Source of the DNA: Nitrososphaerales archaeon
GTDB taxonomy: Archaea; Thermoproteota; Nitrososphaeria; Nitrososphaerales; UBA57
DNA length: 64,000 bases
NCBI GenBank assembly: GCA_047517285.1
Contig: JAKZTE010000001.1
Span: 27,498 to 91,497 of the forward strand
Direction of reading: 5' to 3'
The notes beneath the pieces were generated by a model, which saw only the letters and a list, made by a program, of their open reading frames with translations, searched no databases and was not told where the DNA came from. The first letter of the stretch is position 1. Each line of letters starts with the position of its first letter. The translations under genes and the position numbers were made by a program. Of the stretch, positions 10,631 through 19,081 are shown in pieces.

Positions 10631-11881
10631 TTATTGCATCCTATACCTTAATATTGCTCCTAATCCGCTAAAACTCATTAACATTCTTCCTTCCTCTGAT
10701 CCACTTCCTAAAACCTCAATTCTCGTTCCAGTTTCAGAAGCTTTATCTTCTAAAATTTCGATTAAATCTGTTTCTGTTACAGTAAAATCTACAGATTGAC
10801 AAGATTCACACGACTCACTCAACAACTTCTGTTTCTCCTGAACGAATGACGTTCTATTTAGAATCTTATTCCTATCTACTGAACATCTATTACATTTTAG
10901 TAAAATATTTAACATATTCAAATCTTCTGAAGCAATTATTACTTCGACCGCTCCTTTGGTTGTTGCATCCATTACTTCTTTTATTCCATATGCAGCAAGA
11001 CTCTTTTCTTTATGTATTTCTGATAAAAATCTCTGAATCAACTTTTTCTCTTCAATCAATCTCATATCTTTTAGTACATCTGACGACTTCTCTATTGCTT
11101 CACGTACTCCTTCTGCACCAGAATACGCTCCATCTACTTCTGCTAAAATCTTTTCCTTTAATCGATAATCTAAATAATCACTTTTTAAAAATGAATCTTT
11201 TGTAGGACCTGGTCCACTTATTATTAGTCCTTTTATTTTGTTCTGTTCTAAAAAGAGTTTTTTTGCATGTTCAGCAACTCTTCTATAATATCCTGACAAA
11301 TTCATCTCTCTCAGTCTTTCATACCTTCTTGCCGATTGCCCACCTGCTCTTGTTTTTCCACCAACTCCCGATGTAAGAACTTCATCAACTACTGTTTTTG
11401 CACCTGTTAAAACCCCCAATCCTGCTTCTGTCGAATCTATTGAAATAACTCCAATCACATCAACTTCTTTAATCATATCCATCAGATATTCTAAATGAAA
11501 ATGATCATCACATCTGTAAAGATACGTTTGTACTGGCCTCGGAGGGATTATCTCATTAACAAATACTTGTTCACTGCCAGGACCATTTGTCATTAAAGAT
11601 CCAACAAATAATACTATTCCGTTTTCAGGAGTTTTCTTGAAAAGCTTTAGTCGTTGTTGAGTCTTTGTTAATGCATCCTGAACATGATTTCTAGTAGAAT
11701 CTGATTTTATGTTCGTTGCCGTTCCATATTCTTCTCGTAAATTATTCAACACTTCGTGCAGTGCTTTTTTTGGAGGAATATATAAGGAAATTAGCTCAGT
11801 TCCTTTTCCTGTCTTACTAGAGAGTTCTCTAAGCATCTTCCTTGTTTTATATAATGCTACTGAATCTATATTACTCGGCAA
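10631..11881 (-). CDS. prf1: peptide chain release factor aRF1
   Basis: NIKS motif (TATNIKS) and GGQ motif (AGGQSARRYERLR). The start at 11881 is TTG. Confidence 0.93.
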   Translation of the reverse strand: MPSNIDSVALYKTRKMLRELSSKTGKGTELISLYIPPKKALHEVLNNLREEYGTATNIKSDSTRNHVQDALTKTQQRLKLFKKTPENGIVLFVGSLMTNGPGSEQVFVNEIIPPRPVQTYLYRCDDHFHLEYLMDMIKEVDVIGVISIDSTEAGLGVLTGAKTVVDEVLTSGVGGKTRAGGQSARRYERLREMNLSGYYRRVAEHAKKLFLEQNKIKGLIISGPGPTKDSFLKSDYLDYRLKEKILAEVDGAYSGAEGVREAIEKSSDVLKDMRLIEEKKLIQRFLSEIHKEKSLAAYGIKEVMDATTKGAVEVIIASEDLNMLNILLKCNRCSVDRNKILNRTSFVQEKQKLLSESCESCQSVDFTVTETDLIEILEDKASETGTRIEVLGSGSEEGRMLMSFSGLGAILRYRMQ

Positions 11882-12659: not shown

Positions 12660-12989
12660 CTAAATCAAATCTCTTTGAAAACATGTTTTTGTATTTTTGT
12701 GACAAGCATTGCCAAATTGTTCTACTAAATAAATTAGTGTATCTTCATCACAATCTATCTTTATTTCGAGTACTTTCTGTACATTTCCAGATTCTTCACC
12801 TTTTTTCCAAAGTTTGTTTCTAGACCTGCTCCAATAATGACCATATCCTGTTCTAACAGTCTCTTCTATCGCTAATCGATTTGCATAAGCCAACATTAGT
12901 ATATCTCTTGATTTACTATCTTGCACTATAACCGGAACCAATCCCTGACTCTTTTCAAAATCAATATCATCTATAGATAATTTTGTCAT
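12660..12989 (-). CDS. hisI: phosphoribosyl-AMP cyclohydrolase (monofunctional HisI, no HisE domain)
   Basis: GLVPVIVQD...[17 protein letters not shown]...DCDEDTL...CH is typical of HisI. The protein is only 109 aa. Confidence 0.9.
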
Positions 12990-13749: not shown

Positions 13750-14472
13750 TTAATCCTCCAATGTAATAGCCTGTTCTATTGTAATTATTTTACTATGCAA
13801 TGCTCTACCTAAAATTACGTATTCCACGCCTATTTCTTTCACTTTGTTTATGTCCTCTATAGAACTAATTCCGCCACTAGCTTGAATTTGTATACTGGTG
13901 TTATTTCTAATTTTTCTCAAAGTTTCCATATCAGGTCCCTCCAGCATTCCATCTTTTTTAATTGCAGTTAGTAAAATCGTTTCAATTCCATAATCCGCAA
14001 AGTCTGAAACTGCTTTATCTAATTCTATTCCAGAACTATCCCTCCAACCATTAATCATAATCTGATTGCCAACATAATCGAGTGATATTATAATTTTTGA
14101 TACACCGACTTCTCTACAAATCTCTTCAAATAATCTTCTGTTATTTACTGCAACAGTTCCAATTACAACCTTGCTTACATTCCCAGAAATTTTTTTAGCA
14201 TAATCCACGTCGCGTATTCCTCCTCCAACTTGTATCTCCATTTCCGTACTTTCTGAAACTGTTTTAATTAATTCGTAATTATTTCCTCGTTCTAATGTTG
14301 CATCTAAATCTACTATGTGCATCCGACTAATTCCAATTCCTTGCCATTTTTTAACAAGTTGTACTGGACTGTAATCATAAAACGTAGCTAAATCTGGGTT
14401 TCCTTGTTTTAATCTTACTACTTTTCCATCTAAGAGATCTATCGATGGTACTATTTTCATAAATCCCCACAA
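13750..14472 (-). CDS. hisA: ProFAR isomerase
   Basis: [18 protein letters not shown] and the (beta/alpha)8 HisA pattern; located in the his operon. Confidence 0.92.
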
Positions 14473-15065
14473 ACTGACACAAAATTCTCTAGTATTCTTG
14501 CTCCAGCCTTTCCTGATTTCTCTGGATGAAATTGAGTTCCAAATATATTGTTCTTATTTACCATTGATGTAAATTCTGTACCGTAGTCTGTCGTAGTGGA
14601 TATAATTTCAGAATCAGTTGGTTTTGGATACAAAGAATGAACAAAATATGCCCAAGATTGATCTTCAACACCGTCTAAAATACGATCTTTATTGTTCTGT
14701 TTTAGAGTATTCCATCCTATATGAGGCACTTTTACATTATTCGAAAAAAATATTATTTCACCTTCGAAAAATCCTAATCCATCTCCTGGACCTTCCGCGC
14801 TTTTTTCAAAGAACAATTGCATTCCCAAACATACACCTAAAATTGGCTTATTATTTTCATAATAATCATTTAAAATTCTCTGATTTACTTGTATCCTCTT
14901 CACTGCGTGTTTCCAACCTCCTACACCTGGAAGAATAATTCCGTCATATTCTAAATTTACATCTAATTCTGATGTTACAATAGTTGTAACTCCTAGCTTT
15001 TCTAGTGCAGTTTGAATACTAAATAAATTACCTACACCATAATCTAATATGGCAATCTTTATCAT
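14457..15065 (-). CDS. hisH: imidazole glycerol phosphate synthase, glutaminase subunit
   Basis: IAILDYGVGNLFS, GVCLGMQ (catalytic Cys) and QFHPEKS are class I amidotransferase motifs. Confidence 0.95.
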   Translation of the reverse strand: MIKIAILDYGVGNLFSIQTALEKLGVTTIVTSELDVNLEYDGIILPGVGGWKHAVKRIQVNQRILNDYYENNKPILGVCLGMQLFFEKSAEGPGDGLGFFEGEIIFFSNNVKVPHIGWNTLKQNNKDRILDGVEDQSWAYFVHSLYPKPTDSEIISTTTDYGTEFTSMVNKNNIFGTQFHPEKSGKAGARILENFVSVCGDL

Positions 15066-15649
15066 TACATCATTCCCTTCGATGAGGGAGTTCCATCTCT
15101 TCTACTGTCTGGCGACATTGCTTCTCTCATTGATAATGCCATTGCTTTTATTGCAGCTTCCACTTTGTGGTGATCATTGTTTCCATATTCTACAATGACA
15201 TGAATGTTTGCTTGTAGACTAGTTGAAAACGACTGAATAAAATGATAAATATCTTCTGCAGGCATATCTTCAATTCCTTCTTTATCTATCTTCAAATCTG
15301 CAACTTGAAATGGACGTTTAACTAAATCTACCGCTGAATATGCTAATGCATCATCCATTGGGACAATCGCAAAACCAAATCTCTTTATAGATTTTCGTTC
15401 TCCAAGTGCTTTGTTAATTGCTTCACCTATTGTTAGTGCAACGTCTTCAGCTGTATGATGAATTAAATCTCCTGTCGCATCAATTTGAATATCAATCAAG
15501 CTATGTGTAGCAAATGAAGTAACCAAGTGGTCTAAGAATTTTACCGAAGTATTAATCTTTACATTTCCGGTTCCTTCTAATTGTACTCTTACTGTAATGT
15601 CCGTTTCCTTCGTTTTTCTTGTTACTTCAGCTTCTCTCAATTCACTCAC
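15065..15649 (-). CDS. hisB: imidazoleglycerol-phosphate dehydratase
   Basis: RKTKETDI, DxHH motifs (LIHHTAEDV, NNDHHKVEA) and SSKG. It is a monofunctional IGPD with no fused phosphatase. Confidence 0.93.
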   Translation of the reverse strand: MSELREAEVTRKTKETDITVRVQLEGTGNVKINTSVKFLDHLVTSFATHSLIDIQIDATGDLIHHTAEDVALTIGEAINKALGERKSIKRFGFAIVPMDDALAYSAVDLVKRPFQVADLKIDKEGIEDMPAEDIYHFIQSFSTSLQANIHVIVEYGNNDHHKVEAAIKAMALSMREAMSPDSRRDGTPSSKGMM

Positions 15650-16799
15650 TAAATAATTCAGGTATATCGTTAATATTACTTATTATTATGTCCGCTTTCT
15701 TGTCCTTAAACAGCTTAATTTTATTTCGTTCTGACCTTGAGGAGCCATATATTCCTGCAAATATATACTGTTGATTATTGGCTCTATTTGCCGCTTTTGT
15801 CATTAATAGATCCTCCATAGAATCACCAACATACAGTATATTTCCTTTTGAAGCTAAATTTGTTATAGATTTTTTTAATGCTATGGGGCTGGGTTTATCA
15901 ATTCTGGCGCCATATTCTGGAATACGTGCCAAATCTTCGATAAATACGTTGCCTTTTACATTAAAATATCTAAACAAGTTTCCTAGTGTGAATTTTGTCC
16001 CAATCTTACCCCTTCCCGATACAATTGCAATATTCTTCTGAAATCTCTTTTTTAATGCAGTTAATGTCGATTCCTTAACAATCAACTTTTCACTTTCGAT
16101 GGTTCCTTTACGATTGAAAGTAATAGTATTTGTTTTTCTGGCCTTTTTTATTAGATTCTTTCCGTAGAAATATTCATCAAATACATTGGTTACGATGTTA
16201 TTCCTTCTATCATTTGTAAAATTCAAAAACCTTTTAGCAGAATATAATAATTCTTTTTGTTCCTTATCTAATCCTTTACTAATCAATAATTCGATAGATT
16301 CTATATCAAATTTCTTTATCTCTTTTGCAAGTTCGTTCAATTCTCTTGTAAAATTAATCCTTGTATTCTTGGCATTTAATCCGATTTTATTCAATTCTAT
16401 TAATTCTAATTTTCTAAATGAATTCGAAATATTTCTCATATTAATATTGTTTAATTCTTGTTCATATGCCTCTGATAAACTCTTTGGCAACATCGATATA
16501 ATCTTTAATATTATTACATAACAAAACTTGTAATCATTATTGAATCCCCCAGTTTGTCTAAAAAGTTCTAGTGTTGTTTTTGATATTTTATACCTGCTAA
16601 ATTTCATATTTACTATATTCTTCAAGATATATGAAATTGTAAGATCTATGCATACATCATAGGATTTTTTTGAATCAATTAACACTCCATCACAATCAAA
16701 AATTATTGTATTAATATTTTTAACATTCCTATCTGAAATCCTTTGATAGGCTACTCTGTTGTTAATTATTTTTTTTTGATATACTTTTGACATTTTCAT
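15642..16799 (-). CDS. HAD-superfamily hydrolase with large cap insertion (candidate histidinol-phosphatase)
   Basis: HAD motif I is IIFDCDGVLIDS, motif II IAIVSGRG, the motif III Lys lies in DKPSP, and motif IV is YVGDSMEDL. The gene overlaps hisD (upstream) and hisB (downstream) inside the his operon. Confidence 0.6.
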   Translation of the reverse strand: MKMSKVYQKKIINNRVAYQRISDRNVKNINTIIFDCDGVLIDSKKSYDVCIDLTISYILKNIVNMKFSRYKISKTTLELFRQTGGFNNDYKFCYVIILKIISMLPKSLSEAYEQELNNINMRNISNSFRKLELIELNKIGLNAKNTRINFTRELNELAKEIKKFDIESIELLISKGLDKEQKELLYSAKRFLNFTNDRRNNIVTNVFDEYFYGKNLIKKARKTNTITFNRKGTIESEKLIVKESTLTALKKRFQKNIAIVSGRGKIGTKFTLGNLFRYFNVKGNVFIEDLARIPEYGARIDKPSPIALKKSITNLASKGNILYVGDSMEDLLMTKAANRANNQQYIFAGIYGSSRSERNKIKLFKDKKADIIISNINDIPELFSE

Positions 16800-18123
16800 T
16801 TACAAATCTTGCTTTTGCTGATTCTCCGTGATTGATTAAACCCTCTTGGTTTGATAATTTTTCAATCTTCTCTAAATTATTCTTTAATTTCTCTTTAGTT
16901 GTTTTTGCAATAAAAAACCTTCTCGTAAAATCAATACTAGATAATGCAGAATAAAATTTTCCTGAACCGCCTGTTGGTAAGACGTGATTTGTACCCAATC
17001 CATAGTCACTAAATGCAGCCGGCGTATAGTTTCCTATCAATACCACTCCACTTGACGTCATCTCTTTTGCTACGGAATCTTGATTCTCAGTCATAATCTC
17101 TAAATGCTCTGACGCAAAATCATTTGCAAAATCAATACATTCTTGCATGCTTTTACAATATACTATGAATCCATTCTTCAATAATGATTTGCTGACTATG
17201 TCTCTACGCTCGATTTGCGGCAATCTTTCTTGTATTAATCTGATTAAATCTTTAGCAAGTCTTTTCGACGTTGTAACTACCCCACATAAGCTATCAGTAC
17301 CGTGTTCAGCCTGTGCAAATAGATCACTTATGATTAATTCTTTATCAGCACTATTGTCTGCAATTATCAGTAATTCTGAAGGACCTGCAGGTAAATCTAT
17401 TCCTACATCTTCAGATATTATTTTCTTAGCTTGATATACGAAAATATTTCCTGGTCCTGCAATTTTCTCGACTGGTTTTATCGCATTTGTTCCATAACCC
17501 ATTGCCGCTATCGCTTGAGCTCCCCCTACTTTGTATATCTCATCGACTTGGCAAATATCTGCTGCCACAAGCACTGACGGATTAATTTTCTTATCTAAAG
17601 ATGGAGGCGAACAAACAATTATTCTTTTTACACCTGCTATCTTTGCTGGAACTGATGACATAACCAAAGATGATGGATACACTGCTTTTCCTCCTGGAAC
17701 ATAACATCCAACACTTTCTAACGGAACCATGTTGTATTTTATGTAGCTGCGCTTATCCCTTATTTCAACATCATTAACAAAATTAGAGAACGATTTCATT
17801 ATCTTCTTTTCAGTTTTCTCTACAGATTTTTTTAGAATCTTTAATTCTTTTACTATTTCTGAATCAATGATTGAGTATGCTTCTTTAATCTCTTTATTAT
17901 TAACTCTTAATTGATTGGGAAGTAGTTTTACTCTGTCAAACTTTGACGTATACTTCAATAAGGCTTTGTCGTTGTTCTTTTTTACGTCATTCATTATCTT
18001 TTTTACGTAATCTGTGTCAGTAGATTTTACCGCTCGACGACGAATTTTTTTTGAAGTTTGTTCTACTGTTGATAATCTGTTGATCTCAAAATACTGAATC
18101 AAACTATTTACCTTCATCTTCAT
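16762..18123 (-). CDS. hisD: histidinol dehydrogenase
   Basis: PAGPSELLIIAD, AQAEHG and the GxNHVLPT-like LGTNHVLPTGG motif. The gene overlaps hisG by about 20 nt. Confidence 0.93.
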   Translation of the reverse strand: MKMKVNSLIQYFEINRLSTVEQTSKKIRRRAVKSTDTDYVKKIMNDVKKNNDKALLKYTSKFDRVKLLPNQLRVNNKEIKEAYSIIDSEIVKELKILKKSVEKTEKKIMKSFSNFVNDVEIRDKRSYIKYNMVPLESVGCYVPGGKAVYPSSLVMSSVPAKIAGVKRIIVCSPPSLDKKINPSVLVAADICQVDEIYKVGGAQAIAAMGYGTNAIKPVEKIAGPGNIFVYQAKKIISEDVGIDLPAGPSELLIIADNSADKELIISDLFAQAEHGTDSLCGVVTTSKRLAKDLIRLIQERLPQIERRDIVSKSLLKNGFIVYCKSMQECIDFANDFASEHLEIMTENQDSVAKEMTSSGVVLIGNYTPAAFSDYGLGTNHVLPTGGSGKFYSALSSIDFTRRFFIAKTTKEKLKNNLEKIEKLSNQEGLINHGESAKARFVNENVKSISKKNN

Positions 18124-19081
18124 GAATTTTCTCTAATGGCAGTACCTGGACAGGTCTATGTACAATCAAACCTTGTGCGTATTTTCTAAGATATGGTAAT
18201 ATCTGAAGAAATTCATCTTTAGGTATTACAGTATTAATCGAATACCATTCATCTTTTGATAATTCACTAATGGTGGGGGATTCTAATGCCGGAATAATCT
18301 TTAAGACACGCTCTAAGTTGTTCTTTTTTACATTCATAAATATATGTACTTTGGATTTTGCTTCTACTACTCCCTTACATAAACTAATAACATCATAAAT
18401 TTTCTGTCTTTTTTTGGGATCTTTTAATGCCGTTTTATTTGCAATTAAATAAGCGGAAGATTCCATTATCGTATCCACAACTTTAAGATTATTTTGCGCT
18501 AAAGTTGAACCGGTTTCAATCACATCAAATATTACGTCCGCCTCTTCTGGAGGTTTTGCTTCTGTTGCTCCAAAAGAAAACACGACTTTAACATCTTTGT
18601 TTGTTCCAGTACTAAACCATGGTGTGACAATCGACGGTGATTTGTTTCCATATTTCTTTTTGTATATCTCATTATTGAGCAAATATTCTCTTGCCAAATT
18701 CAGATACTCGGTTGAAATTCGTAATTGTTTTTTATCTTTTATATGATTCTTTAATAAATCTGAGAAATTTTTGCTCTTATTTGCATCTGGTAACGCAACT
18801 ACTATTCTCACCTTGCCATATTCTAAATTGAGTAATTTTACTACGTTTGCTTTGTTTTCTCTTATCCAATCTTCTCCTGATACTCCTATATCTTGAGTTC
18901 CTTCCTGTACGTTCTTTGGTATCTCTTGAGGTCTTAATATCTTCACGCTAATACTACTATCATTTATTATTGGCCTGTATGTTCTTGACTGGCCTTTTAT
19001 TGTATATCCTGCAGTTTCAAAGAACTGATATGTTGCTTTTTCCAAAGATCCCTTTGGCAGAGCTAATTTAATTACTGACAT
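18104..19081 (-). CDS. hisG: ATP phosphoribosyltransferase
   Basis: N-terminal IKLALPKGSLEKAT and ETGSTLAQNNLKV motifs. It is the first gene of the his operon. Confidence 0.9.
   Translation of the reverse strand: MSVIKLALPKGSLEKATYQFFETAGYTIKGQSRTYRPIINDSSISVKILRPQEIPKNVQEGTQDIGVSGEDWIRENKANVVKLLNLEYGKVRIVVALPDANKSKNFSDLLKNHIKDKKQLRISTEYLNLAREYLLNNEIYKKKYGNKSPSIVTPWFSTGTNKDVKVVFSFGATEAKPPEEADVIFDVIETGSTLAQNNLKVVDTIMESSAYLIANKTALKDPKKRQKIYDVISLCKGVVEAKSKVHIFMNVKKNNLERVLKIIPALESPTISELSKDEWYSINTVIPKDEFLQILPYLRKYAQGLIVHRPVQVLPLEKIHEDEGK

What the first reader, a model, noticed from the sequence alone, without database searches (positions are those of the whole stretch)
15642..16799. Large-cap HAD hydrolase embedded in the his operon: candidate for the missing archaeal histidinol-phosphate phosphatase
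The order hisG-hisD-X-hisB-hisH-hisA-hisF-hisI is translationally coupled throughout, and X overlaps both neighbours. X has all four HAD motifs (FDCDGVLIDS; VSGRG; Lys in DKPSP; GDSMEDL), with a cap insertion of about 200 aa between motifs I and II.

hisB here is a monofunctional dehydratase, and no PHP-type (HisJ) or IMPase-type (HisN) phosphatase is in the operon. The HAD protein is therefore the obvious candidate for the histidinol-phosphatase step. It is non-orthologous to the small DDDD-type HAD domain fused to enterobacterial HisB. hisC and hisE are not in this window.
Basis: inference. Interest (0 to 1): 0.55.

Follow-up and report, generated by a model that had tools for sequence, protein, structure and literature searches.

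The report
Archaeal HAD-type histidinol-phosphate phosphatase gene
The unnamed hydrolase gene inside this marine archaeon's histidine operon is very probably the histidinol-phosphate phosphatase, but its enzyme family was already identified and tested biochemically in Nitrosopumilus maritimus in 2024, so this is a correct annotation and not a discovery.

Summary
On the minus strand lie hisG-hisD-X-hisB-hisH-hisA-hisF-hisI, tightly packed. X (15642-16799, 385 aa) is a HAD hydrolase with all four catalytic motifs and a helical cap of about 190 aa.

The interpretation (histidinol-phosphate phosphatase, HolPase) is also very probably right, but it is not new. X belongs to the nmHisN family. Its N. 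maritimus member (Nmar_1556, between hisC and hisB) was shown in vitro to be a specific HolPase (Kinateder et al. 2024, PMC10804674).

- X matches Nitrosopumilaceae members at 31-37% identity over more than 90% of its length.
- It carries the published specificity fingerprint in its accepted Thermococcus-type form: Y47-D48-R81-D89, with I51 and L77.
- Its homologues sit just upstream of hisB in 23 of 24 named genomic loci and in all 11 loci from related genomes.

In this lineage hisC has left the cluster and lies on another contig. The cap has about 60 extra residues (three helices) compared with the tested enzyme.

The genome (81% complete) has no PHP-type, HisN-type or HisB-N-type phosphatase.

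This scan has made the same call before on other genomes.

Side note: no recognisable hisE was found in this genome or in most relatives searched.

The parts
15642..16799 (-). X: HAD-type histidinol-phosphate phosphatase (nmHisN family), 385 aa, or 383 aa if it starts at ATG 16793
   Evidence: ORF; PF00702; homologues; fingerprint; AF2 model with pLDDT 90.3
16671..16700 (-). HAD motif I, FDCDGVLIDS (nucleophile D35, acid/base D37)
   Evidence: F34 D35 C36 D37 G38 V39 L40 are invariant in 76 sequences
16656..16661 (-). Fingerprint residues Y47-D48 (Y24-D25 in nmHisN)
   Evidence: Y in 118/118 and D in 104/118 aligned homologues; role from the alanine scan in PMC10804674
16533..16559 (-). Fingerprint residues R81 and D89 in RQTGGFNND (K56 and E64 in nmHisN; R and D in toHisN)
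   Evidence: the same R...D pattern aligns in PDB 6iah Tt82
16092..16670 (-). All-helical C1 cap, residues 44-236
   Evidence: AF2 secondary structure
16305..16493 (-). About 60-residue cap insertion (residues ~103-165; helices 106-121, 127-132, 150-160) that Nitrosopumilaceae enzymes lack
   Evidence: alignment A1; model
16008..16022 (-). HAD motif II, VSGRG (S261)
   Evidence: G262 invariant, R263 nearly invariant
15885..15899 (-). HAD motif III, DKPSP (K302)
   Evidence: K302, P303, P305 invariant
15807..15827 (-). HAD motif IV, GDSMEDL (D326, E329, D330)
18104..19081 (-). hisG, long form
   Evidence: PF01634 and PF08029
16762..18123 (-). hisD; overlaps X by 38 nt, or 32 nt with the later X start
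   Evidence: PF00815, E 3.5e-144; junction read
15065..15649 (-). hisB, imidazoleglycerol-phosphate dehydratase only; overlaps X by 8 nt
   Evidence: PF00475; NCBIfam monofunctional HisB models, and only residues 165-355 of the bifunctional model match; junction read
14457..15065 (-). hisH
   Evidence: PF00117
13750..14472 (-). hisA
   Evidence: PF00977
12986..13747 (-). hisF
   Evidence: PF00977
12660..12989 (-). hisI, cyclohydrolase only, with no HisE domain
   Evidence: PF01502; only positions 4-107 of the 208-position HisIE model match

Best explanation
X is the histidinol-phosphate phosphatase (step 8 of histidine biosynthesis) of this uncultured marine thaumarchaeon. It is a member of the archaeal nmHisN/toHisN family of capped HAD phosphatases.

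Mechanism, inferred from the family:
- Mg2+ is held by D35, D37 and D326/D330.
- D35 attacks the phosphate of L-histidinol phosphate to form an aspartyl-phosphate intermediate. D37 acts as general acid/base.
- S261 and K302 bind the phosphoryl group.
- The helical C1 cap closes over the site. Y47, D48, R81 and D89, with I51 and L77, select the imidazole/amino-alcohol part of the substrate.

The gene is co-transcribed and probably translationally coupled with hisD and hisB.

Shown here: homology, intact motifs and fingerprint, fold, conserved operon position, and no rival phosphatase found. Inferred: the activity itself, carried over from orthologues at 31-37% identity.
For: (1) Literature. Nmar_1556 (nmHisN) is a HAD hydrolase between hisC and hisB of N. 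maritimus. It hydrolyses histidinol phosphate (kcat 0.79 s-1, KM 73 uM) and none of nine other phospho-compounds. Its fingerprint is Y24-D25-K56-E64, with YDRD in the T. onnurineus enzyme (PMC10804674).

(2) Homology. X finds 553 homologues. These include Nitrosopumilus, Nitrosarchaeum and Nitrosotenuis 'HAD family hydrolases' at E 1e-41 to 1e-45, 31-35% identity and 92-97% coverage.

(3) Fingerprint. A Nitrosopumilus sp. member (P0104, 306 aa) has exactly the paper's residues at exactly its numbering: I20, Y24, D25, I28, I52, K56, E64. X aligns as S43, Y47, D48, I51, L77, R81, D89, which is YDRD. Among 121 family members, 55 are YDRD and 47 are YDKE.

(4) Gene neighbourhood.
- 23 of 24 named loci with a real match have the gene inside a his cluster, immediately upstream of hisB wherever the downstream sequence is present. 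These come from Nitrososphaerota, Bathyarchaeota, an Odinarchaeia MAG and one MAG labelled Blastocatellia.
- All 11 loci from the window's genus, family and order have hisD-X-hisB.
- Three Tara/JGI marine contigs show the same layout with the same overlaps.
- 27 of 31 relatives have the gene.

(5) Structure. The AF2 model (pLDDT 90.3, pTM 0.88) shows a Rossmann-like HAD core plus one all-helical cap inserted after motif I. The nearest solved structures are 1qyi and 6iah, the Tt82 phosphatase of Thermococcus thioreducens. A profile of the family hits 6iah at E 3.3e-21.

(6) No alternative in the genome.
- No PHP domain.
- The two IMPase-family ORFs score 74 and 70 bits against the HisN cut-off of 275.
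- No HisB-N-type HolPase: best 27.8 bits against a cut-off of 84.
- No paralogue of X.
Against: - No enzyme assay exists for this protein or for any long-cap member.
- Identity to the tested enzyme is only 31-37%.
- The cap carries about 60 extra residues whose effect on specificity is unknown.
- The least important fingerprint-neighbour position (I20 in nmHisN) is Ser here.
- The genome is only 81% complete, so a rival phosphatase could lie in the missing part.
- The YDRD form of the fingerprint was validated on the much smaller Thermococcus enzyme, not in this sequence background.
Confidence: 0.88

Rival explanations
1. X is a general or differently specific HAD phosphatase, for example the phosphoglycolate or sugar-phosphate phosphatase that some automatic annotations name. 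Its place in the his cluster would then be incidental.
For: JGI names some homologues 'phosphoglycolate phosphatase-like HAD superfamily hydrolase'. There are weak sub-threshold NCBIfam hits to phosphoglycolate phosphatase and PpaX models over motifs III-IV only. Tt82, a structural relative, is titled simply a phosphatase.
Against: All those hits lie far below cut-off (26 bits against 225) and cover only the core motifs. The operon position is kept across phyla. The tested orthologue rejected nine other substrates. The cap fingerprint that binds the imidazole is intact.
Confidence: 0.05
2. X is the HolPase, but its enlarged cap (the three-helix insertion at 103-165) adds a second role. This could be a second his-pathway hydrolysis such as PR-ATP pyrophosphohydrolysis, for which no hisE gene is found, or docking to a pathway partner.
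For: PF01503 (HisE) was not found in this genome, and not in five relatives that are 91-99% complete. Some HAD enzymes with C1 caps are pyrophosphatases; BT2127 structures appear in the Foldseek list. The insertion is confidently folded, with pLDDT 84-93 over most of it.
Against: Nitrosopumilaceae lack the insertion and mostly lack a PF01503 hit too, so the insertion does not track the hisE gap. nmHisN did not hydrolyse ATP or PRPP. Nothing in the insertion resembles a known catalytic motif.
Confidence: 0.04
3. The real HolPase is one of the two IMPase-family proteins (G000 C1:17971-18777 or C3:33247-33891), and X does something else.
For: IMPase-type HisN enzymes exist in Actinobacteria and plants (PMC5516325, listed). 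Two IMPase-family ORFs are present.
Against: Both score about 70-74 bits against the HisN equivalog cut-off of 275. Neither is near the his genes. One of them has an in-frame TAG within the Pfam match.
Confidence: 0.03

Closest known systems
nmHisN (Nmar_1556), HAD-type histidinol-phosphate phosphatase of Nitrosopumilus maritimus (Kinateder et al. 2024, Protein Sci 33:e4899, PMC10804674)
   Same: Same protein family: E about 1e-42 to Nitrosopumilus members over more than 90% of the length. Same HAD core motifs and a single large helical cap after motif I. Fingerprint positions conserved (Y, D, basic, acidic, plus two hydrophobics). Same place directly upstream of hisB in a hisG...hisI cluster. 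Same phylum.
   Different: Only 31-37% identical. 385 aa against about 306 aa, from an N-terminal beta-hairpin extension of about 25 aa and about 60 extra cap residues (three helices). The fingerprint is YDRD instead of YDKE. The upstream neighbour is hisD, not hisC, because hisC has moved elsewhere in this lineage.
toHisN of Thermococcus onnurineus (Lee et al. 2008, as cited in PMC10804674) and the solved relative Tt82 of T. thioreducens (PDB 6iah)
   Same: Homologous HAD phosphatase with a helical C1 cap. Identical YDRD-type fingerprint: the 6iah alignment shows SYD...R..G.F..D. A family profile hits 6iah at E 3.3e-21.
   Different: Much smaller (240 aa, a seven-helix cap according to the paper). 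Foldseek TM-score is only 0.46 normalised to X. I did not check whether Tt82 itself is a HolPase.
HisB-N, the HAD-IIIA ('DDDD') HolPase domain of enterobacterial bifunctional HisB
   Same: Same superfamily, same chemistry and same pathway step.
   Different: No C1 helical cap and a different subfamily. X gives no hit to the HisB-N models; TIGR01662 scores 27.9 bits against a cut-off of 44.6. hisB here lacks the N-terminal domain.
PDB 1qyi (S. aureus Q8NW41, structural-genomics HAD protein of unknown function)
   Same: Best structural match (Foldseek E 1.9e-10, TM 0.60). Similar size (380 aa) and a large helical cap.
   Different: 15% identity, bacterial, function unknown, and no link to his genes established.

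Membership tests
nmHisN/toHisN-type archaeal HAD histidinol-phosphate phosphatases | Significant full-length sequence homology to the Nitrosopumilus enzyme | tested here: met
   P0104 (Nitrosopumilus sp.) at E 2.6e-42, 31% identity, 93% coverage. P0104 carries the paper's residues at the paper's numbering.
nmHisN/toHisN-type archaeal HAD histidinol-phosphate phosphatases | Intact HAD catalytic motifs I-IV | tested here: met
   D35, D37, S261, K302, D326, E329 and D330 are present, and these positions are invariant or nearly so in 76 sequences.
nmHisN/toHisN-type archaeal HAD histidinol-phosphate phosphatases | Specificity fingerprint Y24-D25-K56-E64 (or the YDRD form), plus hydrophobic residues at positions 28 and 52 | tested here: met
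   Y47, D48, R81, D89, I51, L77. The paper accepts YDRD as compatible with HolPase function.
nmHisN/toHisN-type archaeal HAD histidinol-phosphate phosphatases | One large all-helical cap inserted after motif I (C1 type) | tested here: met
   helices span 44-236 between strand 29-34 and strand 257-261, with no second cap insertion.
nmHisN/toHisN-type archaeal HAD histidinol-phosphate phosphatases | Gene located inside the his cluster next to hisB | tested here: met
nmHisN/toHisN-type archaeal HAD histidinol-phosphate phosphatases | Mg2+-dependent, specific hydrolysis of L-histidinol phosphate | not testable with these tools
   Needs an enzyme assay. Shown only for Nmar_1556 and toHisN (PMC10804674).
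HisB-N (HAD-IIIA) HolPase, TIGR01656/TIGR01261 | Score above the family cut-off, with a small capless HAD-IIIA domain | tested here: not met
   these models give no hit for X; the best genome hits are 27.8 and 24.4 bits against a cut-off of 84.15, and they are in other genes.
PHP-type HolPase (HisJ/HisK) | PHP domain (PF02811) | tested here: not met
   none in X; none in the genome (81% complete).
IMPase-type HolPase (HisN, TIGR02067) | Score above the equivalog cut-off of 275 bits | tested here: not met
   the two IMPase-family ORFs score 74.2 and 70.5 bits. X is not of this fold.
TIGR01548 (HAD-SF-IA-hyp1) | Score above the cut-off of 140.2 bits | tested here: not met
   51.9 bits. This is the best NCBIfam hit and spans 31-336, so X is related but not a member as curated.

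The most novel reading that the evidence does not exclude
The long-cap form of the enzyme, with its extra three-helix insert and N-terminal hairpin, does more than dephosphorylate histidinol phosphate. For example, it might also supply the PR-ATP pyrophosphohydrolase step, for which neither this genome nor most relatives searched show a recognisable hisE.
Probability: 0.03. Interest if true: 0.7.

Novelty: new member of a known kind. Interest (0 to 1): 0.14.

Why it matters
The result fills an annotation gap. Public records call these proteins only 'HAD family hydrolase' or 'phosphoglycolate phosphatase-like'. Naming X as HisN-type HolPase accounts for every histidine-pathway step in this small-genome marine thaumarchaeal lineage except hisE.

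It also extends the published family to a divergent clade with a longer cap, and it documents a variant cluster layout in which hisC has left the operon. It does not reveal a new enzyme type. The open question it was meant to address was answered in 2024.

Tried and rejected
- I tried to find RNA or DNA sequencing runs to test co-transcription.
- I searched for a canonical HisE (PF01503) in the genome, in five relatives and in 81 genomes of the order. There were only weak hits.
- Those weak hits are short proteins of a dUTPase_2-like family. The own-genome member, found with a profile built from them (C3:67332-67718), matches PF08761. That family is present in 50 of 81 genomes and missing from several families that keep the his cluster, so I do not propose it as HisE.
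- A phmmer search with the one clear MazG-like ORF (L055) found nothing significant in the genome.
- I considered the two IMPase paralogues as HisN candidates and rejected them on score.
- The phylogeny did not resolve the deep branching of the long-cap forms. It used a midpoint root, had many long branches and left 8 open forks. I draw no conclusion about whether the long or the short cap is ancestral.
- I did not fold the Nitrosopumilus enzyme for comparison, because no superposition tool was available.

Full report
**What is there**

The window is archaeal and has about 33% G+C. An eRF1 gene lies at 10631-11881. The source genome is an 861-kb, 81%-complete assembly.

Eight ORFs on the minus strand form a tight cluster: hisG, hisD, X, hisB (dehydratase only), hisH, hisA, hisF and hisI (cyclohydrolase only).

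X spans 15642-16799 and is 385 aa. It overlaps hisD by 38 nt, or 32 nt if it starts at the second ATG (16793), which is where most close homologues begin. It overlaps hisB by 8 nt.

X matches Pfam Hydrolase PF00702 (E 4.9e-10). Its best NCBIfam hit is TIGR01548, below cut-off.

**What it is**

A literature search found that the question has been answered. They then:
- purified Nmar_1556 of Nitrosopumilus maritimus;
- showed specific Mg2+-dependent histidinol-phosphate phosphatase activity (kcat 0.79 s-1, KM 73 uM), with nine other phospho-compounds not hydrolysed;
- named the enzyme nmHisN;
- defined a specificity fingerprint, Y24-D25-K56-E64, by alanine scanning. I28 and I52 are accessory residues, and YDRD is the variant found in the Thermococcus enzyme toHisN.

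**Is X a member?**

Homology. X retrieves 553 homologues. Close ones (61-95% identity) come from marine metagenomes. Nitrosopumilaceae 'HAD family hydrolases' of 305-325 aa match at 31-35% identity and 92-97% coverage.

Fingerprint. One Nitrosopumilus sp. protein (P0104, 306 aa) has I20, Y24, D25, I28, I52, K56 and E64 at exactly the published numbering, so I used it as a ruler. X aligns as S43, Y47, D48, I51, L77, R81, D89, which is the YDRD fingerprint. Across 121 family members, 55 are YDRD and 47 are YDKE.

Gene neighbourhood.
- Among 24 real matches in named genomes, 23 lie in a his cluster, most with the full hisG-hisD-hisC-X-hisB-hisH-hisA-hisF-hisI order. They come from Nitrososphaerota, Bathyarchaeota, an Odinarchaeia MAG and one MAG labelled Blastocatellia. 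Only a Caldarchaeum locus lacks his neighbours.
- In the window's own genus, in three more genera of its family and in one further family of the order, all 11 loci read hisD-X-hisB, without hisC between them.
- Three Tara/JGI contigs show the identical layout and overlaps.
- hisC is on another contig of this genome.
- 27 of 31 relatives have the gene.

Structure. The AlphaFold2 model is confident (pLDDT 90.3, pTM 0.88). It shows a HAD Rossmann-like core with a single all-helical cap (residues 44-236) inserted after motif I. The nearest solved structures are 1qyi and 6iah, the phosphatase Tt82 of Thermococcus thioreducens. The family profile hits 6iah at E 3.3e-21, and the pairwise alignment shows the same SYD...R...D pattern.

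**Rivals**

- The genome has no PHP domain.
- Its two IMPase-family ORFs score 70-74 bits against a HisN cut-off of 275.
- It has no HisB-N-type domain: best 27.8 bits against a cut-off of 84.
- It has no paralogue of X.
- Three other small HAD_2 hydrolases exist elsewhere, but none is linked to his genes.

The genome is incomplete, so absence is not proven. Even so, nothing competes with X.

**How this member differs from the tested enzyme**

- It has an N-terminal beta-hairpin extension.
- It has about 60 more cap residues (about 103-165; helices 106-121, 127-132 and 150-160).
- Such long forms (357-404 aa) are the rule outside the Nitrosopumilaceae/Nitrosotalea/Nitrosotenuis/Cenarchaeum clade. 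That clade forms one well-supported short-form group (100/100).
- The window's genus forms its own clade (100/100) on a long stem among the long forms, and the deeper order is unresolved.

No long-cap member has been assayed, so the transfer of function is an inference. It is a strong one.

**Verdict**

The novelty claim is out of date. This is a new, divergent member of a known and experimentally characterised family. Earlier follow-ups in this scan reached the same conclusion on other genomes.

**Seen in passing: no recognisable hisE**

- PF01503 gives no hit in this genome or in five relatives that are 91-99% complete.
- In 81 genomes of the order there are only 14 weak hits, 5 of them over cut-off.
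- Those hits are short proteins of a dUTPase_2-like family. The own-genome member (found) matches PF08761. The family is present in 50 of 81 genomes and absent from several families that keep the his cluster.
- The PR-ATP pyrophosphatase step therefore remains unassigned here.

Noticed in passing
whole genome G000; window hisI at 12660-12989 (-): No recognisable hisE (PRA-PH, PF01503) in this genome, in five relatives that are 91-99% complete, or in most of 81 genomes of the order (14 weak hits, 5 over cut-off). hisI is cyclohydrolase-only. The PR-ATP pyrophosphatase step has no assigned gene in this lineage.
   Followed up: partly
G000 C3:67332-67718 (-) = L059:1330-1719 (-): 129-aa all-alpha NTP-pyrophosphatase-like protein, dUTPase_2 PF08761 (E 7e-14). 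It is the only MazG/HisE-superfamily relative found in the genome. No trimeric dUTPase (PF00692) was found. The family occurs in 50 of 81 genomes of the order, so it is more likely the cell's dUTPase than a HisE substitute.
   Followed up: partly
G000 C3:86755-87819 (-) (L002): hisC lies on another contig, away from the his cluster. In Nitrosopumilaceae, Bathyarchaeota and others it sits between hisD and the phosphatase gene. The hisC-less layout is shared by all 11 loci examined from related genomes (the window's genus, three other genera of its family and one other family of the order).
   Followed up: yes
L013 (CALHAI010000004.1, a 324.7-kb contig labelled 'uncultured Blastocatellia bacterium'): This contig carries a full archaeal-type hisG-D-C-X-B-H-A-F-I cluster. 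Its X groups with a Nitrososphaerales protein in the tree (support 90/86). Either the contig is mis-binned or mislabelled, or the cluster was transferred horizontally into an acidobacterium.
   Followed up: no
G000 C1:17971-18777 (-) (L004): One of the two IMPase-family ORFs has an in-frame TAG within the Pfam match. It could be a shorter gene, a broken gene or a sequencing error.
   Followed up: no
window 16793-16799: X has two in-frame ATGs (M1 and M3). Most close homologues are 381-383 aa and start at the equivalent of M3, so the annotated start may be two codons too early.
   Followed up: partly
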